Part shown: one piece after another, positions 1,602 through 53,162 of the stretch
How the letters are laid out: each line of letters starts with the position of its first letter
Numbering within the stretch: the first letter of the stretch is position 1
DNA from: an uncultured Pseudomonadota bacterium
Lineage (GTDB): Bacteria > CALINM01
Direction of reading: 5' to 3'
DNA: 64,000 nucleotides
Assembly (NCBI GenBank): GCA_964540515.1
Contig: CAZIMS010000001.1
Location: forward strand, 223,291-287,290
Made by a program: the position numbers and the translations under genes
Notes under the pieces: model-generated
The model's database searches: none
Told to the model about the DNA's origin: nothing
Seen by the model: the letters and a program-made list of their open reading frames with translations, nothing else

Positions 1602-1659
1602 AACTATGTATTATTATAATTTATTATCTGATAATAAGCTAAATATTCCGTACTGTAAA

Positions 1660-19619: not shown

Positions 19620-19621
19620 AT

Positions 19622-20218: not shown

Positions 20219-20233
20219 AACAGTACCTCCTAA

Positions 20234-28259: not shown

Positions 28260-29175
28260 AAAGAAAAATTTCTCCTTTTCTAATCTCAAAATCTGCTTTA
28301 GCAACTCTTTGATTCATCATAATGAAGCTTTGCAAATCTATTTTGGACAAAATATTAAGAGCACTTTCTATTCTCTTATTATCCCATTCAGAGTTAAAAT
28401 CGTCAATAAGCATTATTGAGCTGTAATTTTTTATTTTACTCAAAACAGAGATAAACATTATAAAAATTAAACTTTTTATCTCTCCAACGGAAAGGTATTT
28501 TTTATCATCTTTTAAAAAAATTATGTCATCTCTGTCTCCACGACGTATCTTAACAGTAAAATCAGGTAAGGACATTTCTTTTTTCATTTTATCAAAACTA
28601 TCTTTTATCTCCTCTAACAATCTCAATCTATAAGTATCAACAATTTTTTTATATTTAAAGATGATATTTTCAATGATTTTTCGTTCTTTGTCTTCCTTTG
28701 ATATTAATAAACTTCGCCTTGATTTTATCAACATTTTATAAACTAATAGAAATTCATTTCCATAGAGGTAAAGGCACATCCTATCTATTAGTTTTTTTCT
28801 GTAGAAACTAAAATTTTTAAAATAAAAAAGGACGTCGCCACCTAATAAGAAAGTATATAGAGATATTTTTTTTCTATACGGTTTTTCGTCAATAAAAAAG
28901 CTTCTTTTATTCCTTGTTAGTTTAAAAGATATAGTGTTTTCAATGCCATCATCACTTAATATACCTTTAACATAAGAGAAATCCTTTTCAAAAAAAATAT
29001 TATCCTCTAAACTTTTTCTAAAGCTTCTCCTATTGAATAGAATGTAGATGGCCTCTAAAAAATTTGTTTTTCCTTGACCGTTTGTACCAAAAAAGATATT
29101 AGTAGTATCGTTTAGAGCTATATTAGCAGACTCTATATTTCTGAAATTGCAAATTTCAATATGTTTTAAATACAT
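28252..29175 (-). CDS. recF: DNA replication and repair protein RecF (short, divergent form)
   Basis: Walker [14 protein letters not shown] at the N-terminus; in the dnaA-dnaN-recF-gyrB position. Only 307 aa, with an atypical Walker B region ([12 protein letters not shown]). Confidence 0.7.
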
Positions 29176-30258: not shown

Positions 30259-30407
30259 TATTTACTCCTTATGTGGTAGATGTTAGTAGTTTATGTTAAT
30301 TTGTTGATAAATATATATATCTTCTTGTTATTAATATAAAAAAGTATGTGCAAAAAATGTTCATAAAAAAAAGTTTGTCAACGTTAAAAAGTAGTTTAAA
30401 AAATTTG

Positions 30408-31709: not shown

Positions 31710-31926
31710 AGGTTATCAATTTACCAAATAAAATACCATTATTCAAGAAACAAATTGTCAGGGGTCAGGTCTTTATTTTTGATCAGCTGTCAATAAATTA
31801 CTAATTTTTATGAAAATGTTAAAGTTGAGAAACTACTTTCTTTTGTTAACAAAAATTAATCTAATTTCTAAAGGGGTTTATTAACAACAAGGTTTATGTA
31901 ACTTAGAAGGGACATCCCTATCTTTA

Positions 31927-33339
31927 TTACTTCTTAGACAATTTAAGTTTTTTTACCACTGACTCAACAGCATCGGCAACTACTCTCGGTACCCGTTTAT
32001 CAAAGGGAGAGGGAATTATATAATCTTCATTTAACTCTGATGGTTTAATCAGGTTTGCTATTACCTGTGCGGCAGCCAACTTCATCTCATAGGTAATCAT
32101 TTTTGCACGGGAATCCAATAATCCTCTAAAAAATCCGGGGAAACAAAGGACATTGTTTATCTGGTTTGGATAATCGGATCTACCTGTTGCAATAACCTTT
32201 GCATGTGGCTGTGCCTCCTCAGGCATGATCTCTGGTATAGGGTTTGCCATAGCAAAGACTATGGCATCCTTTGCCATATTCTTTATATCTTCTCCTGTTA
32301 AGAGCCCTGGGCCAGAAGTACCCATAAATATATCGGCTCCTTTTATTGCTTCGTGTATGGAGCCCTTAATTTTTTTACCATTTGTAATAACAGCAAGTTC
32401 ATCTTTATACTTATTCATCCCTTCTTTTCGACCTTTGTAGATGGCTCCTTTACTATCACAGACAATCACCTTTTTAGGATCGACTCCTGCTTTTATTAAT
32501 AGCTTTACACAGGCTATTCCTGCAGCGCCTGCCCCTGATGTTACGATTTTTACCTTATCTATATCTTTTTTTACTATCTTCAGTGCATTATAGAGCGCAG
32601 CAAGGGCAACAACTGCGGTTCCATGTTGATCATCATGAAAGACTGGGATATCAAGCTCATTTCTAAGCCTTTCTTCAATCTCAAAACAGCGGGGAGCTGA
32701 GATGTCTTCTAAGTTTATACCCCCAAAGACAGGAGCTATCTTTTTTGTTATATCAATAATTTCTTCTGTATCTTTTGTATCAAGGCATATTGGAAAAGCA
32801 TCTACATCGGCAAATTGTTTAAAAAGCATAGCTTTGCCTTCCATAACAGGTAAAGCTGCCGAAGGACCAATATCGCCGAGACCTAATACAGCTGTACCGT
32901 CTGTAAGAACTGCTATAGTATTACTTTTAATAGTGTAATTATAAACATGGTCAGGATTTTTATAAATATCCATACATACTCTTGCAACACCAGGTGTATA
33001 AACCATAGAAAGGTCATCTCTATTGTTAATAGAGTGTTTAAGTTTTATAGCTATCTTTCCACCTTGATGTATGGCAAAAGTTCTATCAATTACATGTTTA
33101 ATCTTGACACCAGAGATCTTTTTTAACTCTTCTATAATCTGATGTATATGTTCGGTGCTGGCTGCAGCAAAATTAATATCCCTAGTTATAGTATTTTTAC
33201 CTATTTTGTATATATCAATGGAACCAATATCTCCACCTGCTCCTCCTATGGTAGAAGTAATCTTGCCAAGCATCCCTACAATATTAGGATATTCAATCCT
33301 TAAGTTTGCACTAAAACTTGGAGTTGCTTTTGGAGTCAT
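31927..33339 (-). CDS. NAD(P)-dependent malic enzyme with N-terminal ACT domain
   Basis: ACT-like N-terminus, then malic-enzyme motifs (VYTPGVARVC, GAGAAGIA Rossmann). Confidence 0.85.
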   Translation of the reverse strand: MTPKATPSFSANLRIEYPNIVGMLGKITSTIGGAGGDIGSIDIYKIGKNTITRDINFAAASTEHIHQIIEELKKISGVKIKHVIDRTFAIHQGGKIAIKLKHSINNRDDLSMVYTPGVARVCMDIYKNPDHVYNYTIKSNTIAVLTDGTAVLGLGDIGPSAALPVMEGKAMLFKQFADVDAFPICLDTKDTEEIIDITKKIAPVFGGINLEDISAPRCFEIEERLRNELDIPVFHDDQHGTAVVALAALYNALKIVKKDIDKVKIVTSGAGAAGIACVKLLIKAGVDPKKVIVCDSKGAIYKGRKEGMNKYKDELAVITNGKKIKGSIHEAIKGADIFMGTSGPGLLTGEDIKNMAKDAIVFAMANPIPEIMPEEAQPHAKVIATGRSDYPNQINNVLCFPGFFRGLLDSRAKMITYEMKLAAAQVIANLIKPSELNEDYIIPSPFDKRVPRVVADAVESVVKKLKLSKK

Positions 33340-34206
33340 AGGTACCCCCTTTTATGTTAACTTAATAATATGTAAATGTACGAAAAGTAGTTTAATACTA
33401 GATCTTAACAAACTTTTAAATCTAACGTATATGTTCAAAAAACATAATCGATGAAGATAGAACTTAATTATATATGTCTTTAGATTCGACTCTTAGAATC
33501 ACAATCTGTTATAGGAGTAGGATTATTTTAAGCATTATAGTTAAAACCAACTATCTAATAGCTAATCTTTATTGGCTGTTATATTTTTAATTTACCATTT
33601 TTAAGGTAAAGTTACAACTAGCAAATGGAAGGTCAACAAACTTCACTGTTTGAACCCAAAGGGTGAGTTCAAAGTTTGTAGTATAATAAGCTTGGAGCTG
33701 TGAAAAGAACTTGCGGAGAGAAAAAATGACCTTCCCTCTATCGGCAAATTAAACCCAAGTTGAGTCCACAATGGTACTTGTCAAGAAAATTGTGACATCT
33801 TCGCAAATCTACTATTAAAAATCTGCCTAAGTTCATAAAATATACTCCTTGATACACTTAATGGCTTCTTCCATCTGCCCTGTATATCTGTAGCCCTTCA
33901 GGATATTTCTTTTCATATCCACCACGAAGAGATTCAAATTTTTTGACTGCTTCTCCAAAATCACTGATTAATTTTATCTTAGCCAATGCTAAGTATAAAG
34001 CTAACACAATTTTATTTTGACATCCCTTCTGGTTAATCTTGGTGTTTTCAACAGCGCCTTGATGAATGATGCCGTATATAAATTCAAAGCTTTATGAAGA
34101 ACCAAAGCAAATCTTTTTTGTTCAAACATTAATCTACAAAATTCCCACAATTTTGACTTATCTAAGAAAACTGTTAAAATCTTAATTAAAAGGGGTTAAC
34201 ACTTAA

Positions 34207-34515
34207 ATGAGTACCTTAAAAGATTTAATAGAGGAAGAAAAAAGGATCAAAACACTTTTGGAAGAAGAAAGGCGTAAAGTTGCCGAATATTTATCAAATA
34301 AAAGAAAAGAGACAGATGATAATTTGAAAATTTATGAGCAAGAGCTTACCCAAAAGATCAGAATGGAGGTAGAGCAGGCAGAAAAAGATTACAGAGAACA
34401 ATTAGAATTAAAAATAGATAGACTAAAATCAATAGAACAATCTCTCAGTAATTTTGATGAAAAAAGCTTAATTGAACTTGCAAGCAAATACTACAGGTTA
34501 ATAATTAAGGTATGA
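34207..34515 (+). CDS. A/V-type ATPase subunit H (small coiled-coil peripheral-stalk component), first gene of the operon
   Basis: 102-aa charged coiled coil in the position of ahaH/atpH, immediately upstream of subunit I with a 4-nt overlap. Confidence 0.5.
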   Translation: MSTLKDLIEEEKRIKTLLEEERRKVAEYLSNKRKETDDNLKIYEQELTQKIRMEVEQAEKDYREQLELKIDRLKSIEQSLSNFDEKSLIELASKYYRLIIKV

Positions 34516-36371
34516 TCGTACCAATCTCTAAGATTCAGATAATAGGGCCCCTTGAGCTTTTTGCGGAAGTCATAGATTTTCTAAAAATAAGAAAAATAAT
34601 ACATCCCGAAAGAGAGATAGAGAGCTTCTGTGGCGATTTAAAAGTTTTTTTAAAGAATTATAGCTCCAGTGAAGAGATCGTGAGGGAGAAAATTTTCTAT
34701 GAAAGTCTTAAAAGAAGGGTGGAGAACTTTTTGGAGATATCAAGAGATGTAACATTAATGGAGAGGGAAGGATTAAATATCGAAGATATTAATGTTAATT
34801 ATGAAGAGATTGAGAAAGACACCAACTTCTTGAAAAATTACATAAAAAAGATAGAAGAACTTGAGAAAAAGAAAGAAGAGATAGAGCTTTATATAAAATT
34901 TTTGAGTTTAGCAAAGGCATCCTTTGAAGATGTTTTGGATCTTACAAGCCTTGAGATTACAGGATTGCTACTAAAGAATGAAGAAAATGCTGAGAGATTA
35001 AGAAAAATCTTAGAAGAGAAGGGCAGGGGGCTTTATAAAATCATAACAAAAAAAGATGAAAAGAATAACGTAATAAGCATTATTATCTATCCTAAAGAGG
35101 TTAAGGAAGAGCTAAAAAGGTATCTTAAAGATATAAATATACCAGAGATAGCAACGCCTTCTGAGGTAACAAAGGTACCCCTAAGTCAAAAGATAGAGCT
35201 AATGGATGATAAATTGAAGAAAATTGATGAGCAAAGAGAGCTATTAATAAAGGAGAAAAACGATAAGTTTAGTGAGAAAAAGGCATTATATCTGGAAAAC
35301 TTAAAGATTATTAAAAGAAGGCTTGAACAGCTTGAAGATAGAGTTTTTTTATTCAAATCGGAAAGGCTTTTTTATATTTTTGGTTGGGTACCAAAGGAAA
35401 GACTTATAAATGTAGTAAAGGAGATAAAAAAGGAGTTTAAGGAGTTAGTACTTATAGAGGAGATTCCTCTTTATGAAAATGAGATAGAAAGGGTACCTGT
35501 TATAGTAAAAAACTCTGCATATTTTGAGCCCTTTGAGGTTTTGACTAAGGTTTTTCCTCTTCCCTCATATGGATCCTATGACCCCACATTGTTTTTAGGG
35601 ATTTTTTTCCCACTTTTTTTCGGGATTATAGTTGGCGATATGGGCTATGGTATTGTTATAAGCATCCTTGCCATTATTGGGAGTAAATATTTTAAAAAGG
35701 ACTTTTTAAGAAACATCTCTAAGGTGCTTTTCTACGGCGGGGTAGGCGCTATTATTTTTGGTGTAGTCTATGGAGAGTTTTTTGGTGAGCTCGGGGAGGA
35801 GATAAATTTTTTAAAGAGAATTAAGTTGTTTGATAGAAAACATTCTATAATGCAGATGTTTTTAATAGCTCTTTTTATAGGGATAAGCCATATAGTTATT
35901 GGATTTATACTAGCTATAATAAAGCCTAGCCACAAAAAAGAAAGGGGCCTTTCATTATCTATTTTAATCTCCCTTGCAATAATCTCTATAATTATCTTCC
36001 TTTTGTTCCTTGGCGGTGATAATAAGATCTTATATGCTCTTACAGTTCTTGGAATAATAATATTTGCCTTATCAATAACCTTTTTTGGCATAATCTTTCC
36101 ACTCGAGTTAATAAAAACTTTGGGAAATATTGTTTCCTATGGGAGGATTATGGCTATTGGCCTTTCGTCAGTAATTCTTGCTAACATAGCCAACAACTTC
36201 TTGGGAGCTATAGGTAATATCTTTGTGGGGTTTTTGATTGCCCTACTTATACATAGTATAAACATAGTTCTTTCAGTCTTTTCACCCACTATACACTCAT
36301 TGAGATTACATTATGTAGAGTTTTTCTCTAAGTTTATGAAGTTTGGTGGAAAAAAATTTAATCCCCTATAA
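34512..36371 (+). CDS. A/V-type ATPase subunit I (membrane a-subunit, 116-kDa family)
   Basis: 619 aa. Hydrophilic coiled-coil N-terminal half plus a 7-8 TM C-terminal half carrying a conserved Arg-containing helix (SVFSPTIHSLRLHYVEF). Confidence 0.8.
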   Translation: MIVPISKIQIIGPLELFAEVIDFLKIRKIIHPEREIESFCGDLKVFLKNYSSSEEIVREKIFYESLKRRVENFLEISRDVTLMEREGLNIEDINVNYEEIEKDTNFLKNYIKKIEELEKKKEEIELYIKFLSLAKASFEDVLDLTSLEITGLLLKNEENAERLRKILEEKGRGLYKIITKKDEKNNVISIIIYPKEVKEELKRYLKDINIPEIATPSEVTKVPLSQKIELMDDKLKKIDEQRELLIKEKNDKFSEKKALYLENLKIIKRRLEQLEDRVFLFKSERLFYIFGWVPKERLINVVKEIKKEFKELVLIEEIPLYENEIERVPVIVKNSAYFEPFEVLTKVFPLPSYGSYDPTLFLGIFFPLFFGIIVGDMGYGIVISILAIIGSKYFKKDFLRNISKVLFYGGVGAIIFGVVYGEFFGELGEEINFLKRIKLFDRKHSIMQMFLIALFIGISHIVIGFILAIIKPSHKKERGLSLSILISLAIISIIIFLLFLGGDNKILYALTVLGIIIFALSITFFGIIFPLELIKTLGNIVSYGRIMAIGLSSVILANIANNFLGAIGNIFVGFLIALLIHSINIVLSVFSPTIHSLRLHYVEFFSKFMKFGGKKFNPL

Positions 36372-36384
36372 AGGAGGCATATAT

Positions 36385-36606
36385 ATGGATGAAAAAGTCT
36401 TGTTAGCCTTTGCGGCGGCTCTTTCCGTTGGCTTATGTGGCATTGCAACAGCTTGGGCTCAATCAAAGATAGGCTCAGCGGGCTGTGGAGCTTTAGCAGA
36501 AAAACCAGAGCTTAGCGGCACAATAATTATACTTATTGCTATCCCTGAAACAATCATAATATTAGGTTTTGTAATCGCATCAATGATTCTATTTATGATT
36601 AAGTGA
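36385..36606 (+). CDS. A-type ATPase proteolipid subunit K (single-hairpin c subunit, 73 aa)
   Basis: Two TM helices with Gly/Ala-rich TM1 and the carboxylate in TM2 (AIPETIIILG). Start is taken at MDEK, preceded by AGGAGG. Confidence 0.75.
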   Translation: MDEKVLLAFAAALSVGLCGIATAWAQSKIGSAGCGALAEKPELSGTIIILIAIPETIIILGFVIASMILFMIK

Positions 36607-37196
36607 TGGAAAAAGAAAGTTTACTAAGACATTTATTAGAGAGTTTTGAAAGAGAAAAGGCTCTTCTTCAAGAAATGAAAGAGAAGGAAGAGAGAGAGAT
36701 TGAGTCTAATTATCTAAAAGAAAAGTTACGGTTGGAAGAAGGTTACAAAAAAACTAAAGAGCAAATGATCAAAGAGCTAAGAAAAAAAATTGAAGATGAG
36801 TATCTTCAGAAAGAGCTCGACCTTGAACTGTCACTCCAACATCTTTTAATGGATAAGATAAAGAGTATAGAAAAAAAGCTCATATTTTCTCTAAGAGATG
36901 AGAGATATGAGGAAGTGTTTTTTAATCTCTTCAATGAGTTACCTCATATAGAATGGAGTATTATTAAGATAAATCCTTTAGATAAAAAAATTGCAAAAAA
37001 ATACTTTCCTCAGGCAGAAATTATTGAAGATGGAGAAATTACAGGCGGCTTTATTGTCCTATCAAAGGACGGAAGAGTAATGATTGATAATACCTTTGAA
37101 AAAAGAGCTGAAAAGATAAGAGATGAGGCTTTATTAGGAATATATAAAGAGCTAATTAATTACTTTGGGAAAGATAATGTTAAAAGAGAATATTAA
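36603..37196 (+). CDS. A/V-type ATPase subunit E
   Basis: 197 aa; N-terminal coiled coil and globular C-terminus with ITGGFIVLSKDGRVMIDNTFEKR, typical of subunit E. Confidence 0.65.
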   Translation: MMEKESLLRHLLESFEREKALLQEMKEKEEREIESNYLKEKLRLEEGYKKTKEQMIKELRKKIEDEYLQKELDLELSLQHLLMDKIKSIEKKLIFSLRDERYEEVFFNLFNELPHIEWSIIKINPLDKKIAKKYFPQAEIIEDGEITGGFIVLSKDGRVMIDNTFEKRAEKIRDEALLGIYKELINYFGKDNVKREY

Positions 37197-38034
37197 ATCA
37201 GGCTATCCCTTCGAGTTTTTAATAGCAAGGTTAAGAAACCGTATTAACTCGCTTATTACAACTATAGCCTATTTAAAAGGTAATCTTGAGAGCCAAAGTG
37301 ATTTTGACTGGAATGGCTATAACCTTACCTTTCAAAGAGAGTATGTAAATCTTTACTTCTCCATTGAAGAGAAAGAAAGGGTGCTTTTAAGAAACCTCTT
37401 CATAATCTTTGAGATAAGAAATCTTATAAGTCTCATAAGATACGCCTTCTATGAGAGGAAAGAAGAGATAAAAGAGATATTTAAAAAATCTCTTTTAAGT
37501 GACGTGATAAGGGTTATCTTTTTAAGAGACGATAGTTTTAAAAAAAAGCTTGAAAACCTCTATTATCATTTAGGTCAGATAAACAGAGAGTTACCCAATA
37601 TATTAAATACCTTTGATGAAGAAAGCTTTAGAAGTTTTGAAGAAAATTTTACAAAAGCTATTCTTGAAGGGCTAGTTAGGGATAAAAAAAATATCCCAGA
37701 AGTTAGAGATTTTATTAAAAGGTTCATTGACTTTATCAATTTAAATGGCTTAAGCAAGGCAAATTACTGGAACAGCGAGAAAGCCCCCCTTTTTATAGAG
37801 GGAGGATTTTATACAAAAAAACAGTTAGAAGAGATGTCTTCCCAAGAAGATTTCACAAGTAGCTTGAGGTATATGAGAAAAATTGTTAATGAGCTTAGAA
37901 AAAAAATAGCTCACTCCGATTATTATCTCTTTGTCTTTTATATAAGCAATCTATACCTAGAAAACATAAATTTAAACATACTTTTTAATAGGTTAAATTC
38001 TATAGAGAGAGAGATGGAGACATATATAGTATGA
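37165..38034 (+). CDS. A/V-type ATPase subunit C (d-like)
   Basis: Position between E and F in the conserved H-I-K-E-C-F-A-B order; helical protein; shorter than typical (289 aa). Confidence 0.55.
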   Translation: MGKIMLKENIKSGYPFEFLIARLRNRINSLITTIAYLKGNLESQSDFDWNGYNLTFQREYVNLYFSIEEKERVLLRNLFIIFEIRNLISLIRYAFYERKEEIKEIFKKSLLSDVIRVIFLRDDSFKKKLENLYYHLGQINRELPNILNTFDEESFRSFEENFTKAILEGLVRDKKNIPEVRDFIKRFIDFINLNGLSKANYWNSEKAPLFIEGGFYTKKQLEEMSSQEDFTSSLRYMRKIVNELRKKIAHSDYYLFVFYISNLYLENINLNILFNRLNSIEREMETYIV

Positions 38035-38351
38035 CTAAAAAGATGATATTAATTACTACAGAGGAGCTGGAGAATATTTTTTCTATAATAGGTTTTGAGC
38101 AATATATTGTAAGTGATATCTACTCAGCCGAAGAGCTTATAAAAGAAAAGATAGGGGATGAGAGTATAGGTTTGATAATTATTGAAGAAGAACTCTTTAA
38201 AAAATTAACTGAAAAAACCCGTTTTATCCTTGAAAAGAGGTGGAAAGGAGCTATCTGTAAGCTACCTTCAATAAAAGAGCTTACTATAGAAGAAGGCTAC
38301 ACAATGAAAGAGATAACAAGAGTTTTAGGATATCAGTTAAAGATAACTTAA
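38031..38351 (+). CDS. A/V-type ATPase subunit F
   Basis: 106 aa, MILITTEELENIFSIIGFEQYIV N-terminus typical of subunit F. Confidence 0.65.
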   Translation: MTKKMILITTEELENIFSIIGFEQYIVSDIYSAEELIKEKIGDESIGLIIIEEELFKKLTEKTRFILEKRWKGAICKLPSIKELTIEEGYTMKEITRVLGYQLKIT

Positions 38352-38360
38352 GGAATTCTT

Positions 38361-39989
38361 ATGAAAAAAGGTTATGTTGAAGGCATTTCTGGTCATATTG
38401 TCCAGTCTTCCTTTAAAGATGTAAAAATAGGAGAGCGAGTCTATGTGGGAGAAAAAAATCTCGCTGGAGAAGTAGTAAGGATACTTAAAGAAGGCTGTCT
38501 TATAATGGTATTTGAAGATACAAGAGATGTTAAGTTAAAAGAAGAGATTATTTTTACAGATAAGGAGCCTAACGTCCTTTTAGGACCAGGCTTATTAGGA
38601 GGTATTTATGATGGTCTTCAAAGACAGCTAAGCTTCTTGATGGAAAGATATGGAAGCTTCATAAAGCCTATGAAAAACTTATTAGACATAAATCTTGGTG
38701 AGTACAAACTTAACTTTGTCCCTTTAAAAAAAAGTGGAGAAAGAGTTTTTAAAGGAGAAGCGGTAGGTTATGTAATTGAGAAGGGATTTAAGATATTTAT
38801 TTTTTCTCACAGAGAGGGGTTTTTAAAAGAGATAAAGGAAGGAAAGATAGATGTAGAAAAAGAGGTAGCCCTGCTAAAAGGAGGAGAGGCAATAAGATTT
38901 CATCATAGCTGGTCATTGAAAGAAAAAAGACCTTATAAAAAAAAGAGAAAACCCGAAAAGATTCTTCTAACAGGCCAAAGAGTTATTGATTTTCTCTTCC
39001 CCATCCCCTTAGGTGGCACCTTTATTATCCCCGGGGGTTTTGGTACGGGAAAGACAATCTTACAACAGACTATAGCAAAATTTGCACAGGCTGATATTGT
39101 AATCTATGTTGGATGTGGAGAGCGGGGGAACGAAATGGCTGAACTACTTGAAGAGTTTAGCGAGATAAAGGATCCTTGGGAGAATAGACCCTTAATGGAT
39201 AGAACGATAATTGTTGTAAATACATCTAATATGCCCGTTGCGGCGCGAGAGGCATCAATTTACACAGGTGTAACGATTGCTGAGTTTTATAGAGATTGTG
39301 GTCTTAATGTGCTTTTGATAGTTGATAGTATATCAAGGTGGGCCGAGGCTTTAAGAGAGATCTCCTCCTCCTTGGAAGAGATGCCAGGGGACGAAGGATA
39401 TCCTACCTATCTTATATCAAAGCTTTCAGATTTTTTTGAAAGAGCAGGTCTTTTTGATACCTTGAATAACACCTTAGGATCTATAACAATGTTAATATCT
39501 GTCTCCCCTCCAGGAGGAGACACAACAGAGCCAGTTACACAAAGCTGCCTTAGGACAGCTGGAGGTTTACTTATGCTTGATAAGGAACTGGCAAGCAGAA
39601 GATTTTTCCCTGCCATCAACCATAAGCTTAGTTACAGTCTTTATGAGAGAGATTTACAGAGGGCCTTAAAAGATATCTTTGGTGAGAACTATCAAGAACT
39701 TAAAAGTTTTATTATGACATTACTTAATGAAGAAGAAAAGTTAAGAGAGATACTTGATATAATAGGATACGAAAGCTTACAAGATAGGGATAGATTAATC
39801 ATAGATACAGCAGAGCTTCTTAAAGATAAATTTTTGAGTCAAAATGCCTTTAGTCATGATGCCTTCTCAACACCAAAAGAGATGGTAGAGAAGGTTGAGT
39901 TAATAAAGAGAAAATATAGAGAAGCCCAAGAGTTACTTGAGACAGGAAATCCCTATTTTGAGGTAAGAAGGGTCTATGAATCTTTTTGA
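38361..39989 (+). CDS. A/V-type ATPase catalytic subunit A
   Basis: P-loop GGFGTGKT, GERGNEM, and the non-homologous region preceding the nucleotide-binding domain; 542 aa. Confidence 0.9.
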   Translation: MKKGYVEGISGHIVQSSFKDVKIGERVYVGEKNLAGEVVRILKEGCLIMVFEDTRDVKLKEEIIFTDKEPNVLLGPGLLGGIYDGLQRQLSFLMERYGSFIKPMKNLLDINLGEYKLNFVPLKKSGERVFKGEAVGYVIEKGFKIFIFSHREGFLKEIKEGKIDVEKEVALLKGGEAIRFHHSWSLKEKRPYKKKRKPEKILLTGQRVIDFLFPIPLGGTFIIPGGFGTGKTILQQTIAKFAQADIVIYVGCGERGNEMAELLEEFSEIKDPWENRPLMDRTIIVVNTSNMPVAAREASIYTGVTIAEFYRDCGLNVLLIVDSISRWAEALREISSSLEEMPGDEGYPTYLISKLSDFFERAGLFDTLNNTLGSITMLISVSPPGGDTTEPVTQSCLRTAGGLLMLDKELASRRFFPAINHKLSYSLYERDLQRALKDIFGENYQELKSFIMTLLNEEEKLREILDIIGYESLQDRDRLIIDTAELLKDKFLSQNAFSHDAFSTPKEMVEKVELIKRKYREAQELLETGNPYFEVRRVYESF

Positions 39990-41295
39990 GATATCCTACA
40001 GAAATATTAGCGAGATAAAGGGACCACTACTTTTTTTAGAGGGAGTTTTCTCCGTTAGATCGGGAGAGGTGGTTAAGATAATCTACCCCGATAAAAAAGA
40101 GGGGAGAGGAGAGGTATTAAAAATAGATAAAAATAAAGTGCTTATACAGATTTTTTCAGATCCCAAGGGGCTTTCTGTTGAGGCTCAGGTAATTTTTACA
40201 AATGATATAGCCAAAGTGCCTCTATCTATGCAGATACTAAATAGAGTTTTTGATGGCTCCTTTAAGCCTTTAGATGATAAAGGGTTTTTTATTCCCGTAA
40301 AGAAGGTTCCTATCACAGGCTATCCCATAAATCCAGTAAGTCGGGCATCACCAGAAGATTTTATAGAAACAGGATTATCTACCATAGATGGGCTTAACAC
40401 TCTTGTAAAAGGCCAGAAATTACCAATATTTTCAGGCTCAGGTCTTCCTTCAAAGGAGATTGTAAGGTTTATATTACAAAATGCAAAGATAAGAAGTGAT
40501 AAGAATTTTGCTGTAGTCTTTATTGCTATTGGTCTTTCCTTTTATGACTATCATCACTACTTAGATACTATTAAAACATTAAATGCAAACTATGTAGCCT
40601 TTATAAATCTTTTAGATAGTCCTACAATGGAAAGATTATTAGTACCTCGCTATGGCCTTACAGTTGCGGAATACTTTGCCTTTGAACATGCCTTTGATGT
40701 GCTTGTTATTATATCTGATATGACTAACTATTGTGATGCCCTAAGAGAGATATCCTCTGCAAGAGAAGAGCTTCCTGGTAGGCGTGGATATCCGGGTTTT
40801 ATGTACTCTGACCTAGCTAGTCTTTATGAAAGGGCAGGTAGATTAAAAAATAAAGAAGGCTCTGTTACAATTCTTCCTGTTCTTACTGTGCCAGAAGATG
40901 ATATTACCCATCCTATACCAGATCTGACAGGCTATATAACTGAGGGACAGATTGTCTTATCAAGAAAGCTCCACCAAAAAAATATATTTCCACCAATAGA
41001 TGTTTTGCCAAGCCTATCAAGACTTATGAATAGAGGTATAGGTGAGGGTAAAACCCTTAAAGAGCATCGGCACATAGCAAATCAGCTATACAGACTTTAT
41101 GCGAAAGGTGTTGATCTAAGAAAACTCTCAGCACTCTCTGGGAGAGAGGGTTTGCCCGAAAAAGAACAAAAAATTCTTGATTTCGCAGAATTTTTTGAGA
41201 AAAAATTTATCCACCAAGAAAAAAGAAGAGACATAAAAGAGACCTTAGAGATAGGCATTAACCTTATTAATAAAGTCGAGAATATTAATCTATAA
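39976..41295 (+). CDS. A/V-type ATPase regulatory subunit B
   Basis: 439 aa; B-subunit motifs (SGSGLP, PGRRGYPGFMYSDLASLYERAG). Confidence 0.9.
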   Translation: MNLFEISYRNISEIKGPLLFLEGVFSVRSGEVVKIIYPDKKEGRGEVLKIDKNKVLIQIFSDPKGLSVEAQVIFTNDIAKVPLSMQILNRVFDGSFKPLDDKGFFIPVKKVPITGYPINPVSRASPEDFIETGLSTIDGLNTLVKGQKLPIFSGSGLPSKEIVRFILQNAKIRSDKNFAVVFIAIGLSFYDYHHYLDTIKTLNANYVAFINLLDSPTMERLLVPRYGLTVAEYFAFEHAFDVLVIISDMTNYCDALREISSAREELPGRRGYPGFMYSDLASLYERAGRLKNKEGSVTILPVLTVPEDDITHPIPDLTGYITEGQIVLSRKLHQKNIFPPIDVLPSLSRLMNRGIGEGKTLKEHRHIANQLYRLYAKGVDLRKLSALSGREGLPEKEQKILDFAEFFEKKFIHQEKRRDIKETLEIGINLINKVENINL

Positions 41296-41435
41296 ACAAC
41301 ATTTTTTAATTTATTATTTCAAAGAAGTTAACAAAACATTAAATCATTTGACTATAAATAGATTTTTAATATATTTTTAATTATAAGTATAAACAAAACC
41401 TATGAATGGCACGTAGGTGAAAAAAAGGAGGATCT

Positions 41436-42422
41436 ATGCTAAAAAAAGGCTTCTTTGTGGTTGTTGCCCTAATGTTTTTTCTTGCCTGTGCCACTATGCA
41501 AGAAAAAAGGGCAAAGATGTTTTCACCCTTAGAGTATCTTCAGGGAGCCTCTTATGTAGGTAGCGAAAGCTGTAAGGGCTGCCACGAAAAAGTATTCAGT
41601 GACAAAGCAAATGTGCATCTAAGGGTAAAAGATTTTGAGACTGGCGGGATAAAGACTGGTTGCGAGAGCTGTCATGGTCCTGGTTCTTTACATGTTGAAG
41701 GTCAGGTTGAAAAGATTATTAGCTTTAAGAAAAAAGATTTAGACGTAGTATCCCAATGTATGGCCTGTCATCAAACAATGAAGACCATGTCCTTTGAAGG
41801 CACAGCCCATGCAAAGGATGGTATAGTCTGTATTGAATGTCACAAGGTGCACGACAATAAAATAGCAAAGTTACTCAAAAAAGAAGAAACCGCTCTCTGT
41901 ACAACATGTCATTTAGATATTAAATCAAAGCTTTATAACCCCTCTCATCATCCTATTAGGGAGGCCAAAATGTCTTGCTCAAGCTGTCATAATGTACACA
42001 ATGCTAACGCTGGTATGTTAAACACAGATGAGGGTAGCAAAGAGCTTTGCCTTTCTTGCCACACCAAGTATCAAGGTCCCTTTGTATTTGAACATGCACC
42101 TGTTATAGAAGATTGTATGAACTGTCATAATCCACACGGGACAATAGCCAATAAGCTTCTTAAACAAAATGAGCCTTTCGTCTGTCTACAGTGTCACGAA
42201 GCCCATTTCCACGCCCTTAGAGCATCCTCTAAGAATGATTTGCAATATTTAGGCATTCGGGATCCCTATACAAATAATCCAGTTACTATAAAAGGTGATC
42301 CAGACCAAAGAGGTTTCCAGAAGGCATACTTAACCAAGTGCACCCAGTGTCATACATCTGTTCATGGTTCTGACCTGCCATCTCAGGGCATAACAAGTCA
42401 GGGCAAAAGTTTGACAAGATAG
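41436..42422 (+). CDS. Periplasmic decahaem c-type cytochrome, MtrA/MtoA/PioA family
   Basis: Ten CxxCH motifs counted directly (CKGCH, CESCH, CMACH, CIECH, CTTCH, CSSCH, CLSCH, CMNCH, CLQCH, CTQCH) in 328 aa. The N-terminal signal peptide has a probable A-x-A cleavage site. Confidence 0.85.
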   Translation: MLKKGFFVVVALMFFLACATMQEKRAKMFSPLEYLQGASYVGSESCKGCHEKVFSDKANVHLRVKDFETGGIKTGCESCHGPGSLHVEGQVEKIISFKKKDLDVVSQCMACHQTMKTMSFEGTAHAKDGIVCIECHKVHDNKIAKLLKKEETALCTTCHLDIKSKLYNPSHHPIREAKMSCSSCHNVHNANAGMLNTDEGSKELCLSCHTKYQGPFVFEHAPVIEDCMNCHNPHGTIANKLLKQNEPFVCLQCHEAHFHALRASSKNDLQYLGIRDPYTNNPVTIKGDPDQRGFQKAYLTKCTQCHTSVHGSDLPSQGITSQGKSLTR

Positions 42423-42431
42423 GAGGGCCAT

Positions 42432-44894
42432 ATGAAAAAAATTATGATATCAATTATATGTTTGCTTTTAGGGGTGAGCTTATCCTACGGAGATGATAAA
42501 AGTTTTTCTGGCTCCATAAAGATAGGTGGCTCAGGCCATGATTTAAAAGATTCGGGCACCCTTGTATCTGAATACAACAAAGAAAACAAGAATGACATAA
42601 ACCCATTAGTAGAGATTAAAGGTATCTATGATAAAGAGGCAAGGATAGAGTTTAAAGGTAGCTATATCCACCCAGAAAGTCAGTATTATAAGTTTAAGCT
42701 TGATGGTGAAAGAGTCTTTAGATTCGAAACAGACTATCAAAGATTTTTTCATATCACCAGTAAGGATAATCTAAAAAATCTTTGGGCCCATGTTGGTGAA
42801 GATTATAGGAACAATACCACTTTGGCATCAGGGCCAGATGGAAATGCAGATCCTATGCGTGCACCCGGATTTGCTTTAGTACCAGCAACAGGAACAACTT
42901 CTTTAGGGCAAATAGGCTCAGCGACGGTTTATAATAGTGATATGTCGACAATGTCAAATTATGGCAAATCCGTTACGGAATGGAAAAATAACCTTTATGT
43001 AAATCTGCCAGCTTTAAATGGAGTAACCTTTGGTATAAAGAGTAAGATATTAGAAAGAAAAGGTTTTGACCATTCAACCGTAACTGCCCATTGTAGCACC
43101 TGTCATGTAACAGGCTACGATAAAAGGGTAGAAGAAAAAACCACAGATATCACTCCTTTTATTGATGCTAAGCTTGGTAAATTTTCTTTCAACTATAAAA
43201 TGTCTGCAAGAGACTTCTCAAATAAGGCAGAAGAGACCTTTAAATACGACAGAACAGGCAGCCCTCTTGATAATTCAAACCCCTTCAGAAATAGGAATAT
43301 GTTTGATATAGATGACGGTTATCTACCAGCTAATGTTGACCCTGAATCAAAAAAATTTACAAACACTCTAAAGCTAAGATACGACTTCTCCAAAAACGCA
43401 AATATTATAGTTACAGGTATTCTTTCTGAATCTACAAACAAGTCAACCAACGGTGCCTATGACCTTTTAAGAGGTAAGTATGGTAAAGACCTTGAGTCTG
43501 ATTATAAAGCGTTAGATCTAAAATACCATAGAAAGATTAATAAAGACCTTACCTTTAATATGAAGGCCTATTATAAAACACAAGAAAATGATGATGTCTT
43601 TATAGATGTCATAGAAAGATTAAACCCCGCTGGAGCACCAGGTGGCGCAGTAACTTTTCTAAATGGTCTTCAAACTAACACTTATAATACTACAACTAAT
43701 TTTACCTCCTTTGGTATAGAAGCCTATCCAAACCCACTTGTTTTAGATTTTACAAGACATTCACTACTTAATAGAGACGAGATGGGGATTAATTTTGATC
43801 TAAATTATAGACTGTCAAAAGAGCTTAATCTCTTTGCTTTACTTGGTGTAGATAAGATAAAGAGAGATTATGCCCATGAGTATGAGGTGACTGAAGAAAC
43901 AGAAAAATATAGTCTAAAAATAGGAGCAAACTACAAACCCTCTTCCACGCTAAGATCAAAGCTAACATATAAATATACTAAAATAGATGACCCTTTTATA
44001 TTTTTTAAAGCTGGTTGTGCTGAATCTTATTCACGAGGCGATGCTAATGATACCGATGGCTTAGAACCACATATTTATTACAATGTACCTGTTGGAATGT
44101 ATCGGTGGGACGCTTTATATGGTCCGGTTGTATACAATAGAAGGAAGGCAGGCATGAGCATAGAGCCTACAGGAGAACATCAGATTGACTTAACAATAAA
44201 CTATCTTCCAACAGAGAAGCTTGGTGTTGATCTTTCTGCAAAAATAAAAGATGCAAAAAATGATGATCTTGCCACCTATGACTGGAAAAGAAAGATTTAC
44301 AACGCCAATGCCAATCTGAACTATGCTGTAAACCAAGATTTTGGCCTATACATTGCTTACAACTATCTTAGAGAAAAATATGATAGTATCCTCTGTGCCT
44401 CCTATTACGATGGTTGAGCAAACATAATTCTCTCAAGCCAGGTTGGCTCTGAGCAAAACAATATTAACTATAAAAACGAAGCAAACACAATACTCTTAGG
44501 TGGTAACTATAGTCTAAATAAAAAGACTAACCTTACGGCAAACTTTGTATATAACAAGATTAAAGGCTACATAGAGGGACCAAATTTTGCAAACTCTGTC
44601 TGGACTGACAAAAAGCTGGGTTATCTTTATGATGGTATAGATAATATACAAGGCAATAATCCATCAGAAGTATTGCTTTATAATTTTGCCTATATGAATA
44701 TCTTGCCTGAGCTTTCAGATCTCCAATATGATATTTATGATTTTAATATCTCCGGAGATTATAAGGTCACCGATAATTTAAAGGTGTCCCTTGGCTATCT
44801 CCTATCTGTGGTGAAGGATAAAAAGGGCTATGTATATGGTGACGAAGATGGAAAGATCCATACTGTCTCTGCAAGTTTAACATACAACTTCTAA
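42432..44894 (+). CDS. MtrB/MtoB/PioB-like outer-membrane beta-barrel (porin partner of the decahaem cytochrome). It is a single ~820-codon frame interrupted by one in-frame TGA at 44415-44417.
   Basis: Signal peptide; alternating amphipathic beta-strand pattern rich in Y/N/T/G; C-terminal ...LTYNF ending in Phe, typical of an OMP. ORFs 42432-44417 and 44673-44894 are in the same frame, and the sequence between them is open except for one TGA. Confidence 0.6.
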
Positions 44895-44916
44895 GAAATA
44901 TCTGATATCTTAAAAA

Positions 44917-44947
44917 AGGGGTGCTAATAAAGCACCTCTTTTTTTAA
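44917..44947 (+). terminator. Rho-independent terminator after the porin-cytochrome operon
   Basis: GC-rich inverted repeat AGGGGTGCT...AGCACCTCT followed by a T-run. Confidence 0.5.
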
Positions 44948-45033: not shown

Positions 45034-46530
45034 TTGATGAGTATTTACGTGCTTGTTGTTATTTTTGTCTTTCTTATGCTTTTGTCAGGCCTATTGGGTT
45101 TTTTTAAAACAAAAACAGCTGATGATTTTGTTATTGGCAATAGGAATGTGGGACCATGGCTTTCTGCCTTTGCCTATGGTACAACTTATTTTTCTGCTGT
45201 TTTATTTATTGGATACGCAGGAAAGATTGGATACACCTTTGGGCTTAAATCGCTCTGGATTGCTGTTGGAAACGCCCTATTAGGCAGTTTCATCGCTTGG
45301 AAGGTACTTGCAAAAAAAACAAGAGAGCTAACGGAAAGGCTTAACGCACGCACTATGCCAGAGTTTTTTGCTGCTCGATATAACTGCAAAGCCTATAAGT
45401 ATATCTCGGCAATTATTATCTTTGTTTTTTTGGTTCCCTATTCTGCCTCTGTTTATATGGGGCTAAGCTATTTCTTTGAATCTCTATTTAAAATTCCCTA
45501 TGTCTATGCTCTCTTGTTTATGGCTGGCTTAACTACTATATATCTTCTTCTTGGCGGTTATAGAGCCGTTGCCTTGGCAGACTTTATTCAAGGAATTATT
45601 ATGATAGCAGGTGTTTTTTTGATGGTCTATTTTCTTCTTGCAAATCAGAAAATAGAGGGTATTAAAAATGTGCCTGTAAGACTCTATGAGATAAACCCAA
45701 GCTATACGGAGTTTTGGGGAGGTAAGGGCTTTTTATCCATTTTTTTTCTTATGTTACTTACGAGTTTTGGTGCCTGGGGGATGCCTCAGATGATCCAAAA
45801 ATTTTATGCCATAAAGGATACAAACTCAATAAAACCAGCTACATATATCTCTTCTATATTTGCCTTGATAATTGCAGTAGGAGCCTACTTTACAGGTTCT
45901 TTAACTCCTCTCTTTTTTAAAAGCATACCCTACGACCCCGTTACAATGAAGGCCAATCCTGATTTGCTTGTGCCTCAGATGCTATCTAACTACGTGCCTG
46001 AGTGGGTAACAGCATTAATCTTTTTATTAGTCCTTTCTGCATCAATGTCTACCCTCTCGTCACTTGTGCTTGTCTCCAGCTCAGCCGTTACTATAGATTT
46101 TTTAGGAGATTTAGGCCTTTTTAAAGATAATAAGGTGCAGATACTTGCCTTACGAATATTTTCTTTAGTATTTATTTGTCTTTCAGTGTATATCGCTCTT
46201 AAGAAGCCAACAATTATATTATCATTAATGGCAATCTCTTGGGGGGCTGTCTCAGGTGCTTTTTTAGCGCCCTATCTCTATGGTCTCTTTAGTAAGAATG
46301 TAAATGCTATATCTGCTATAACAGGTACTTTTAGTGGCTTGTTTATAACGATTGTCTTATCAATAATCTATAATTTTGATCCAGCTAAGTTGCCTATGGT
46401 GAGCGTCCTTAGTATGGCAGTGCCGCTAATTATTATACCTATTATGACTCTCATAACTGCAAAAAGAGAATATATAACAGAGATAGGTATAGCTGAAAAA
46501 AATTTTATTGACGAGGAAAAAAATTTGTAG
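45034..46530 (+). CDS. Sodium:solute symporter family (SSS) transporter
   Basis: 13-TM 498-aa protein with SSS-family signature regions (GGYRAVALADFIQG). Confidence 0.8.
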   Translation: MMSIYVLVVIFVFLMLLSGLLGFFKTKTADDFVIGNRNVGPWLSAFAYGTTYFSAVLFIGYAGKIGYTFGLKSLWIAVGNALLGSFIAWKVLAKKTRELTERLNARTMPEFFAARYNCKAYKYISAIIIFVFLVPYSASVYMGLSYFFESLFKIPYVYALLFMAGLTTIYLLLGGYRAVALADFIQGIIMIAGVFLMVYFLLANQKIEGIKNVPVRLYEINPSYTEFWGGKGFLSIFFLMLLTSFGAWGMPQMIQKFYAIKDTNSIKPATYISSIFALIIAVGAYFTGSLTPLFFKSIPYDPVTMKANPDLLVPQMLSNYVPEWVTALIFLLVLSASMSTLSSLVLVSSSAVTIDFLGDLGLFKDNKVQILALRIFSLVFICLSVYIALKKPTIILSLMAISWGAVSGAFLAPYLYGLFSKNVNAISAITGTFSGLFITIVLSIIYNFDPAKLPMVSVLSMAVPLIIIPIMTLITAKREYITEIGIAEKNFIDEEKNL

Positions 46531-53013: not shown

Positions 53014-53059
53014 AAAGATTTTTGGGGATGTAAATTAGCTGATGATTGGAATGAAAAGG

Positions 53060-53155
53060 TTGATATGAAGCCTTCCCTCCGACGGCATTACCCGCATCAG
53101 GTTCCATGGGTTGTCTCCAAAGAGACTCTCAGCTAAAAAAGCACCCCCGGCTTTC
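53060..53155 (-). ncRNA. TPP (THI-box) riboswitch in the 5' leader of the thiamine operon
   Basis: Minus-strand sequence GGGGTGC...GCTGAGAGTCTCTTTGGAGACAACCCATGGAACCTGATGCGGGTAATGCCGTCGGAGGGAAGG contains the conserved CTGAGA, ACCC, GAACCTGAT, GGTAATGCC and GGGAA blocks, ~50 nt upstream of the thiF start. Confidence 0.8.
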
Positions 53156-53162
53156 TCACTAT

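What the first reader, a model, noticed from the sequence alone, without database searches (positions are those of the whole stretch)
41436..44947. MtoAB/PioAB-like porin-cytochrome conduit (decahaem cytochrome + ~820-aa outer-membrane barrel), a candidate extracellular electron-transfer module
A 328-aa secreted cytochrome with exactly ten CxxCH motifs is followed, after a 9-bp spacer, by a signal-peptide-bearing protein. That protein has beta-barrel OMP composition, a C-terminal Phe, and a size (~820 codons if the TGA is read through) that matches PioB/MtoB. The pair ends in an intrinsic terminator at 44917-44947, and no MtrC/OmcA-like outer cytochrome follows. This two-component MtrAB-type conduit is known from Fe(II) oxidisers and metal reducers. 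Here it sits in what appears to be a thermophilic anaerobe.
Basis: partly seen in the sequence, partly recalled or inferred. Interest (0 to 1): 0.7.

Follow-up and report, generated by a model that had tools for sequence, protein, structure and literature searches.

The report
Selenocysteine-bearing OmcK/OmcL porin-cytochrome conduit
This is a two-gene outer-membrane "electron wire" of the already catalogued OmcK/OmcL (GSU2203/GSU2204) family, made of a ten-haem MtrA-like lipoprotein and an MtrB-like 26-strand barrel; the barrel's in-frame TGA encodes selenocysteine and the barrel carries a haem-binding motif of its own, so this is a new member of a known but biochemically unstudied kind.

Summary
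There is a 328-aa protein with exactly ten CxxCH motifs, a 9-bp spacer, and an 820-codon signal-peptide protein that ends in Phe, has one in-frame TGA, and is followed by a terminator.

The TGA is a selenocysteine codon, not a defect:
- about 115 of 131 family representatives stop at that same column;
- rare full-length relatives have Cys there;
- the downstream frame is conserved through to the C-terminal Phe;
- nine diverse loci all have a SECIS-like hairpin at the same offset.

The barrel has an invariant CxxCH (130 of 131 representatives). Both that motif and the Sec lie on the long-loop, extracellular side. The cytochrome is a lipoprotein.

The module is known in the literature as the putative "OmcKL conduit" but has not been characterised. 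Verdict: a real, correctly classed EET module and a new member of a known family. The open question is what the surface haem and Sec do.

The parts
41348..41375 (+). sigma-70-like promoter candidate (TTGACT-16-TATATT, 10 of 12 matches), about 60 nt upstream of the cytochrome start codon
   Evidence: This is a consensus match only; the number of such matches in the region is not above the shuffled expectation.
41427..41431 (+). Shine-Dalgarno sequence GGAGG, 4 nt before the ATG at 41436
   Evidence: Read from the sequence.
41436..42422 (+). omcK-like gene: a 328-aa decahaem c-type cytochrome of the GSU2203 family and a homologue of MtrA/DmsE
   Evidence: Ten CxxCH motifs. NF041028 scores 396 bits (cutoff 325) and TIGR03508 scores 231 bits (cutoff 192). 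6r2q_A (MtrA) matches at E=1.2e-44 over residues 39-317.
41436..41489 (+). lipoprotein signal peptide with lipobox FLAC; Cys18 is the 21st Cys, the one that is not in a haem motif
   Evidence: A lipobox Cys is present in every paired cytochrome whose N-terminus is on the contig (window, L002, L004, L005, L006, L007, L009).
42432..44894 (+). omcL-like gene: an 820-aa outer-membrane barrel of the GSU2204 family of CXXCH-containing selenoproteins, MtrB-like, ending in Phe; public gene calls truncate it to 661 aa
   Evidence: NF041027 scores 428 bits (cutoff 350). The read-through frame is shown. The AlphaFold model of homologue P0002 has 26 strands. MtrB is the best structural match.
43092..43106 (+). 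CSTCH (residues 221-225), the haem c attachment motif inside the barrel protein; it sits at the tip of the long hairpin formed by strands 7 and 8 (loop L4)
   Evidence: C, C and H are each present in 130 of 130 aligned family representatives.
44016..44018 (+). Cys529 (motif FFKAGCAE) in long loop L9; conserved within this clade but present in only 46 of 130 representatives family-wide
44394..44396 (+). Cys655, seven residues before the Sec (motif C-x6-U, CASYYDGU); present in 57 of 126 representatives family-wide
44415..44417 (+). TGA encoding selenocysteine 662, in loop L11 between strands 21 and 22
   Evidence: Homologues stop at or read TGA in this column. Cys (codon TGC in L009) occupies it in P0048, P0077, P0059 and P0074.
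44432..44453 (+). SECIS-like hairpin (CUCAAGCCA-GGU-UGGCU-C-UGAG) starting 14 nt after the UGA
   Evidence: Folding places it among the 0.6% most stable 30-nt windows of the gene. A hairpin sits at the same offset in 9 of 9 loci, with different stem sequences. No Rfam family matches it.
44920..44945 (+). intrinsic terminator: stem GGTGCT/AGCACC followed by a T-run, with an A-run upstream, so it could act in both directions

Best explanation
The locus is a two-gene operon encoding an OmcK/OmcL (GSU2203/GSU2204)-type trans-outer-membrane electron conduit.

Shown:
- OmcK is a ten-haem homologue of MtrA with a lipoprotein signal.
- OmcL belongs to the MtrB/PioB fold class (26 strands).
- Making OmcL requires decoding UGA-662 as selenocysteine, because the last five strands and the C-terminal Phe lie after that codon.
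- A CxxCH motif and the Sec (or rarely Cys) column are the two near-universal features of the family.

Inferred:
- The haem chain of OmcK threads the OmcL barrel from the periplasmic side, as MtrA does in MtrB. It would be tethered to the inner leaflet of the outer membrane by its N-terminal lipid.
- OmcL binds one c-type haem at CSTCH, on the tip of the hairpin formed by strands 7 and 8.
- That haem and Sec662 lie on the long-loop side of the barrel, which is extracellular in MtrB and in outer-membrane proteins generally.
- Together they would form the cell-surface end of the wire and take the place of a separate MtrC-type outer cytochrome.

The direction of electron flow (export to minerals or a partner, or uptake) and the chemical role of the Sec are not determined. 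The Sec could be a haem ligand, a redox-active selenol paired with Cys655, or a substrate- or metal-binding site.
For: Identity:
- NF041028 scores 396 bits (cutoff 325) and NF041027 scores 428 bits (cutoff 350).
- MtrA (6r2q_A) matches at E=1.2e-44.
- The P0002 model has pLDDT 78, pTM 0.75 and 26 strands.
- Foldseek gives 6r2q_B at E=7.8e-25 and TM 0.73, against TM of about 0.4 for the next hits.
- PF11854 is hit by P0002 (53 bits, cutoff 23) and by 19 of 30 family members.

Selenocysteine:
- All 11 close homologues stop at or read TGA after CASYYDG.
- About 115 of 131 representatives at 50% identity end at that column.
- Four full-length relatives have Cys there.
- The downstream frame stays open and conserved through to ...Y-x-F.
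- A SECIS-like hairpin is present in 9 of 9 loci with different stem sequences.
- TGA is otherwise a normal stop codon in the window.
- The family is listed as a selenoprotein in PMC13188914.

Haem motif: CxxCH is present in 130 of 131 representatives.

Topology: connections between strands alternate between short (6 residues or fewer) and long. CxxCH, C529, C655 and the Sec all lie on the long-loop side. MtrB has tight periplasmic turns and long extracellular loops (PMC7198977).

Module: a decahaem gene sits 9-20 bp upstream of the barrel gene in all 11 loci that have upstream sequence, and the flanking genes differ.

Role in EET: GSU2203 and GSU2204 are induced on hematite and magnetite (PMC4070692). 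OmcKL is highly expressed in HotSeep-1 consortia (PMC10553843).
Against: - No member of this family has been purified, so haem attachment to the barrel, Sec incorporation and complex formation are all unproven.
- The window's own barrel did not list PF11854 at E<=1. It has only a 'faint' precomputed hit.
- The barrel family profile finds no MtrB chain in the PDB by sequence.
- The structure was modelled on a 68%-identical homologue with Trp in place of Sec. The haem-motif tip and loop L11 have pLDDT below 50, and no coordinates were available to measure distances.
- Strands 7/8 and 21/22 lie about 14 strands apart in the barrel, so contact between the haem and the Sec is not implied.
- The lipobox would also fit a surface-exposed cytochrome, which is how PMC10553843 describes OmcK.
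- No selA, selB, selD or tRNA-Sec gene is in the window.
Confidence: 0.72

Rival explanations
1. OmcK is a surface-exposed lipoprotein cytochrome, analogous to MtrC or OmcB. OmcL is only the porin, and an unlinked periplasmic cytochrome fills the barrel. This is the view taken in PMC10553843.
For: A lipobox is conserved in the paired cytochromes. MtrC, OmcA and OmcB are lipoproteins (my own knowledge). One paper lists OmcK's predicted localisation as 'Extracellular'. PMC10553843 notes that no periplasmic cytochrome gene is adjacent.
Against: OmcK aligns co-linearly with MtrA over 279 residues at E=1.2e-44 (the stretch holds all ten of its motifs) and is the same size (328 vs 333 aa). It passes the DmsE/MtrA family cutoff. 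Its MtrC/MtrF-domain hit (PF22113) is weak by comparison, 37.7 bits against 108.8 for Paired_CXXCH_1, and is marked 'faint' in the precomputed hits. The barrel's own CxxCH on the outer loops already provides a surface haem.
Confidence: 0.18
2. The CxxCH in the barrel is not a haem site. It would be a structural disulfide or metal-binding motif, and the Sec would be part of a surface thiol/selenol redox or metal-binding centre that does not depend on haem.
For: Shewanella MtrB has a functionally important N-terminal CxxC without haem (my own knowledge). The motif tip has low model confidence. No invariant distal His or Met exists in the family; the best candidate, H107, is present in 106 of 126 representatives.
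Against: The His of CxxCH is invariant in 130 of 130 representatives, while the two middle residues vary freely. That is the signature of haem c attachment rather than of a disulfide. NCBI curators define the family by its CXXCH. Cyc2 is a precedent for a haem-bearing outer-membrane barrel (my own knowledge).
Confidence: 0.12
3. The TGA is a genuine stop or a pseudogene lesion, so the barrel is truncated or split and the module is not functional.
For: All public gene calls end at the TGA. No Sec-insertion machinery is visible in the window. No Rfam SECIS family matches the region.
Against: The same column is TGA across a family whose members are as little as about 25% identical. The 158 downstream codons stay in frame and are conserved at the protein level in every locus. 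Relatives with Cys at that column are continuous proteins. SECIS-like hairpins are present in all nine loci examined. Without the tail the barrel would lack five strands and its C-terminal Phe.
Confidence: 0.03

Closest known systems
OmcK/OmcL (GSU2203/GSU2204) of Geobacter sulfurreducens and the 'OmcKL conduit' of HotSeep-1 / Seep-SRB2 (NCBIfam NF041028 and NF041027; PMC10553843)
   Same: Both proteins pass the curated family cutoffs. The gene order is the same. The decahaem has a lipobox, and the barrel has a CxxCH and a Sec at the family's conserved column. HotSeep-1 is also a thermophile.
   Different: The host is a different, unidentified low-GC (about 35%) lineage. The flanking genes are unrelated (a V-type ATPase operon upstream and an SSS-family transporter downstream). 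The papers that name the conduit (PMC10553843, PMC13343851) do not mention the Sec or the porin's haem motif, and PMC10553843 treats OmcK as extracellular.
MtrAB core of Shewanella MtrCAB (PDB 6R2Q) and its paralogue pair DmsEF
   Different: Barrel sequence identity is only about 14%. There is no mtrC-type gene. The barrel here has its own CxxCH and a Sec, and is about 120-170 residues longer, with the extra length in the loops. The cytochrome here is a lipoprotein.
   Same: A two-gene architecture of MtrA-like cytochrome plus MtrB/PioB-family barrel, with no outer cytochrome gene.
   Different: To my knowledge these barrels are not reported to carry CxxCH or Sec; this was not tested here. The window proteins fall under the separate curated GSU2203 and GSU2204 models rather than under those families.
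Cyc2 fused cytochrome-porin (Acidithiobacillus, Zetaproteobacteria)
   Same: One polypeptide that is both an outer-membrane barrel and a mono-haem c-type cytochrome.
   Different: In Cyc2 the haem domain is N-terminal and the barrel is small, about 16-18 strands (my own knowledge). It has no decahaem partner and no Sec. Here the motif is at residue 221, on an extracellular hairpin of a 26-strand barrel.
ExtKL, the Sec-containing multihaem cytochrome of the Geobacter ExtHIJKL cluster (NF040886; PMC5877670)
   Same: A selenoprotein with c-type haem motifs that belongs to an outer-membrane electron-transfer gene cluster.
   Different: ExtKL is a soluble or periplasmic pentahaem protein, not a barrel, and it is an unrelated family.

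Membership tests
GSU2203 (OmcK) family decahaem cytochrome | Score above the curated cutoff of NCBIfam NF041028 over the full length | tested here: met
   396.2 bits against a cutoff of 325; residues 8-328 match profile positions 2-317 of 317.
GSU2203 (OmcK) family decahaem cytochrome | Ten CxxCH motifs | tested here: met
   Ten motifs in the window protein. Ten in each of seven paired homologues.
GSU2204 (OmcL) family CXXCH-containing (seleno)protein | Score above the curated cutoff of NCBIfam NF041027 (the part before the Sec) | tested here: met
   428.4 bits against a cutoff of 350; residues 8-661 match profile positions 2-580 of 580.
GSU2204 (OmcL) family CXXCH-containing (seleno)protein | A single conserved CxxCH within the barrel protein | tested here: met
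   CSTCH at residues 221-225. The column is invariant in 130 of 130 representatives.
GSU2204 (OmcL) family CXXCH-containing (seleno)protein | In-frame UGA (Sec) at the conserved [FYM]-[DH]-G-U column, followed by a SECIS hairpin and a conserved C-terminal extension | tested here: met
   YYDG-TGA at 44415-44417. Hairpin at 44432-44453. A 158-codon conserved tail follows. Relatives with Cys at that column exist.
GSU2204 (OmcL) family CXXCH-containing (seleno)protein | The host encodes Sec-insertion machinery (selA, selB, selC, selD) | not testable with these tools
   None found in the 64-kb window or in the fetched loci. The rest of the genome could not be reached.
MtrAB / PioAB / MtoAB-type porin-cytochrome conduit | Decahaem of the MtrA/DmsE family | tested here: met
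   TIGR03508 scores 230.8 bits against a cutoff of 192.2. 6r2q_A matches at E=1.2e-44.
MtrAB / PioAB / MtoAB-type porin-cytochrome conduit | Barrel matches Pfam PF11854 (MtrB_PioB) | tested here: inconclusive
   The window protein was not listed at E<=1 and has only a 'faint' precomputed hit. Homologue P0002 (68% identical) scores 53.1 bits against a cutoff of 23, and 19 of 30 family members match, the best at 6.5e-20.
MtrAB / PioAB / MtoAB-type porin-cytochrome conduit | A 26-strand barrel with the MtrB fold | tested here: met
MtrAB / PioAB / MtoAB-type porin-cytochrome conduit | Cytochrome gene immediately adjacent to the barrel gene | tested here: met
   A 9-bp spacer in the window. The same arrangement is found in all related loci that have upstream sequence.
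MtrAB / PioAB / MtoAB-type porin-cytochrome conduit | Soluble periplasmic MtrA-type cytochrome, i.e. an ordinary signal peptide rather than a lipoprotein one | tested here: not met
   Lipobox FLAC with Cys18; the lipobox is conserved in the homologues.
MtrAB / PioAB / MtoAB-type porin-cytochrome conduit | The cytochrome is physically sheathed in the barrel and carries electrons across the outer membrane | not testable with these tools
   This needs a solved structure or biochemical work.
Cyc2 fused porin-cytochrome | N-terminal mono-haem domain fused to a small barrel, with no partner cytochrome | tested here: not met
   The motif is at residue 221, between strands 7 and 8 of a 26-strand barrel, and a decahaem partner is present. 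No Cyc2-type model appeared in the NCBIfam or Pfam hits.

The most novel reading that the evidence does not exclude
The OmcL barrel is itself a seleno-haemoprotein. Its covalently bound haem sits over the exit of the OmcK haem chain. The near-universal Sec is either the sixth (distal) ligand of that haem or a selenol catalytic site next to it. The first would be a natural His/Sec-ligated c-type haem, which has not been described in the sources searched here. In either case the cell-surface end of the wire would be a dedicated Sec-dependent redox centre, for example for sulfur, selenium, metal or partner-cell chemistry, rather than a generic haem. The Sec/Cys column is occupied in about 129 of 132 representatives, which matches the conservation of the CxxCH and exceeds that of any candidate distal His or Met (H107 reaches 84%).
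Probability: 0.15. Interest if true: 0.85.

Novelty: new member of a known kind. Interest (0 to 1): 0.42.

Why it matters
Porin-cytochrome conduits let bacteria respire minerals and electrodes and exchange electrons with partner cells. The OmcKL type is the most highly expressed conduit in a thermophilic partner of methane-oxidising archaea, yet nobody has characterised it.

This locus shows three things about the family clearly. The "porin" is an MtrB-fold barrel. It cannot be made without selenocysteine insertion. It probably carries its own haem on the outer face.

Three consequences follow:
- Every public gene call found here for this protein is truncated or split at the TGA.
- EET activity in these organisms may depend on selenium supply.
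- The usual picture of a periplasmic cytochrome, an inert porin and a separate outer cytochrome may not apply to this family.

It also extends the family to another probable thermophile.

Tried and rejected
- Rfam found no SECIS family at the TGA, only chance-level hits on the opposite strand. The hairpin was therefore assessed by folding and by comparison across loci instead.
- A profile of the barrel family found no MtrB chain in the PDB by sequence. The relationship rests on the fold and on Pfam.
The full-length homologue P0002, in which a gene caller had read the TGA as Trp, was used as a proxy.
- The genome-contig scan returned only two relatives, both unclassified MAGs. Cluster look-ups gave no names. 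Paper searches for the assembly and MAG identifiers found nothing. The organism therefore stays unidentified.
- The afdb50 fold library was unavailable.
- No tRNA-Sec gene is in the window or in nine related loci.
- A formal column-wise covariation count on the SECIS was not attempted. Loop sizes differ (3, 4 or 6 nt), which shifts the pairing register in an alignment that follows the codons.
- DnaA boxes are not enriched near dnaA.
- Model coordinates are not exposed by the tools, so the distances between the haem-motif tip, the Sec and the barrel axis could not be measured.
- Genome-wide TGA reassignment was considered and rejected, because TGA terminates 7 of 36 genes in the window.
- A split gene with an internal restart was considered and rejected. 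Relatives with Cys at that column are continuous proteins, and the tail is in frame in every locus.
Full report
**Observation.**
- ORF A (41436-42422, +) encodes 328 aa with exactly ten CxxCH motifs. Composition-matched shuffles give 0.09 on average and never more than 2.
- It has 21 Cys: twenty in haem motifs plus Cys18 in a lipobox (FFLAC).
- Its TAG stop overlaps a GGAGG, and the next ATG follows after 9 nt.
- ORF B (42432-44894) starts with a type-I signal peptide. It has one in-frame TGA at 44415-44417, then 158 further in-frame codons ending ...SASLTYNF, for a total of 820 aa.
- A GC-rich hairpin followed by a T-run lies at 44920-44945.
- A sigma-70-like promoter match lies at 41348-41375.
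- These are the only two open frames of at least 80 codons in the 64-kb window that contain any CxxCH, so no third cytochrome is present.

**What the two proteins are.**
- The cytochrome passes the curated NCBIfam model NF041028, "GSU2203 family decaheme c-type cytochrome" (396 bits, cutoff 325). It also passes the broader DmsE/MtrA family model TIGR03508 (231 bits, cutoff 192).
- Against the PDB it matches chain A of 6R2Q, which is MtrA of the Shewanella Mtr complex, at E=1.2e-44. The aligned stretch covers residues 39-317, which contain all ten of its haem motifs.
- The barrel's first 661 residues pass NF041027, "GSU2204 family CXXCH-containing (seleno)protein" (428 bits, cutoff 350).
- GSU2203 is OmcK.
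- The pair is called the OmcKL conduit in Murali et al. 2023 (PMC10553843). That paper reports that it is expressed about four-fold above OetABI in the thermophilic ANME partner HotSeep-1. It treats OmcK as extracellular and notes that no periplasmic cytochrome gene is adjacent.
- GSU2203 and GSU2204 are induced 2.4- to 2.7-fold on hematite (PMC4070692).

**The TGA is selenocysteine.**
- All 11 close database homologues either terminate after ...CASYYDG or, in one Logan call, read the TGA as Trp.
- An exhaustive search of 1.84 billion cluster representatives found 206 relatives. Nearly all end at the query position just before that codon.
- Of 131 representatives of at least 400 aa, about 115 end in ...[FYM][DH]G.
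- Reading through the TGA in nine diverse loci gives 148-160 further in-frame codons each time. These are conserved at the protein level and end in an aromatic-x-Phe signal.
- Four rare full-length relatives have Cys in the Sec column; the codon is TGC in L009. Three others have neither Cys nor Sec.
- Fourteen nt after the UGA the window has the hairpin CUCAAGCCA-GGU-UGGCU-C-UGAG. It ranks in the top 0.6% of 30-nt windows of the gene for stability.
- All nine loci have a hairpin at the same offset with a G(G/U)U-type loop. Their stems differ in sequence: GGACC/GGUCC, GGAUGA/UCAUCC and CCUCCC/GGGAGG. In the closest loci even the synonymous sites of AGCCAGGUUGGCU are invariant.
- TGA is a normal stop for 7 of 36 other genes in the window, and no other TGA-split frame exists.
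- The family is listed in a 2026 review of the prokaryotic selenoproteome (PMC13188914).
- The Sec-insertion genes themselves are not in the window, so that requirement is untested.

**Is the barrel MtrB-like?**
- The window protein itself did not list Pfam PF11854 at E<=1. The family profile finds no MtrB by sequence in the PDB.
- Homologue P0002 (68% identical) does hit PF11854 at 53 bits (cutoff 23), and 19 of 30 family members hit it, the best at 6.5e-20.
- An AlphaFold2 model of P0002 built with a 30-sequence alignment has pLDDT 78.3 and pTM 0.75. It shows 26 long strands with shorter early strands.
- Foldseek ranks MtrB (6r2q_B) first at E=7.8e-25 and TM 0.73, about 15 orders of magnitude ahead of TonB-dependent receptors at TM about 0.4.

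1. The barrel contains CSTCH at residues 221-225. C, C and H are each invariant in 130 of 130 aligned representatives, while the two middle residues vary freely. This is the pattern of a haem c attachment site.
2. In the model, the connections from even-numbered to odd-numbered strands are all 6 residues or fewer. The connections from odd to even are mostly long (10-56 residues; four are of 2-8). That is the same asymmetry as in MtrB, which has tight periplasmic turns and long extracellular loops (PMC7198977).
3. On that scheme, four features all lie on the extracellular side: the CxxCH (tip of the unusually long hairpin of strands 7/8), Cys529 (loop 9), Cys655 (end of strand 21) and Sec662 (loop 11).
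4. Every paired cytochrome whose N-terminus is on the contig has a lipobox.
5. No second His or Met is invariant in the family. H107 is present in 84% of representatives. The Sec/Cys column is occupied in all but about three representatives.

**Mechanism proposed.** OmcK, tethered by its N-terminal lipid to the inner leaflet of the outer membrane, threads the OmcL barrel as MtrA threads MtrB. OmcL's own haem, with Sec662 nearby, forms the outward-facing terminus and replaces an MtrC-type protein.
- Homology, fold, motif conservation and Sec decoding are shown.
- Haem attachment to the barrel, the threading, the sidedness, and the role of the Sec are inferred.
- The tips that carry the CxxCH and the Sec have pLDDT below 50. 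Direct Sec-haem ligation is therefore only a possibility, which I put at about 15%.
- The main rival is that OmcK is a surface lipoprotein and an unlinked periplasmic cytochrome fills the barrel, at about 18%.

**Context and host.**
- The pair is the only conserved unit. In the window it lies between a V-type ATPase operon (34512-41295) and an SSS-family transporter (45034-46530). In other loci it lies between DegP/RluD/YfiH-like genes and a YfhO-like gene, or in other settings.
- The host could not be named. An identical copy of the locus is on a contig of NCBI assembly GCA_900096875.1.
- An IVYWREL fraction of 0.427 suggests a growth optimum near 65 C. The Ni-CODH catalytic subunit CooS and radical-SAM enzymes (ThiC and a probable ThiH) fit an anaerobe.

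**Verdict.** More precisely it is a new member of the catalogued but uncharacterised OmcK/OmcL selenoprotein conduit family. Interest is moderate: the module itself is known, but the near-obligate selenocysteine and the porin-borne haem are not addressed in the papers found here that name the conduit, and both are directly testable.

Noticed in passing
window 42432-44417 and 44673-44894; L001, L004-L007, L010-L012: Every public gene call for this barrel is truncated at the Sec TGA (products of 615-667 aa). The tail is either uncalled or called as a separate ORF of 66-138 aa. One Logan call (P0002) translated the TGA as Trp. This is a systematic mis-annotation of the family.
   Followed up: yes
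window 53056-53158 (-): A TPP riboswitch (RF00059, 69.7 bits) lies upstream of a thiamine-biosynthesis gene cluster on the minus strand, running from 53013 down to 46747. Pfam families on the identical locus L001 are ThiF/ThiS-like, a kinase/ThiN-type protein, a radical-SAM/BATS protein (ThiH-like), ThiS, ThiG, TMP-TENI (ThiE-like) and ThiC.
   Followed up: partly
window 25848-34500: gyrB (25848-28304) and dnaA (30408-31709) lie on the minus strand, and the cumulative GC-skew minimum falls near 32-34 kb. This suggests the window spans the replication origin. The E. coli-type DnaA box TTATCCACA is not enriched (23 matches against about 19 expected).
   Followed up: partly
window 17751-21433 (-): An anaerobic Ni-CO dehydrogenase catalytic subunit CooS (TIGR01702, 724 bits) lies next to a 198-aa ORF and a 399-aa FAD/NAD(P)-dependent oxidoreductase. 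This may be a CO-oxidising module in the same organism.
   Followed up: partly
window 34512-41295 (+): A complete-looking V/A-type ATPase operon (I, K/c, E, C, F, A and B subunits) lies immediately upstream of the conduit. It is not conserved next to the conduit in other loci.
   Followed up: partly
L005 3-3908 (JGI 3300002895): In one relative, the region about 5-9 kb upstream of the conduit encodes a 499-aa multihaem cytochrome, a SoxA/TsdA-type cytochrome, a molybdopterin oxidoreductase domain protein and a small rhodanese. This sulfur-oxidation-like neighbourhood might bear on what the Sec site does. It is not conserved elsewhere.
   Followed up: no
L009 7960-8005: In the Cys-form relative (TGC in place of TGA), a moderately stable hairpin still lies at the SECIS offset (-9.8 kcal/mol, within the top 7% of windows in the gene). 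It may be a relic of a former SECIS or may be chance.
   Followed up: partly
window 1-2000 and 28000-32000: GC content drops to 0.29-0.30 in these two stretches, against about 0.35 elsewhere. The first stretch has few long ORFs.
   Followed up: no
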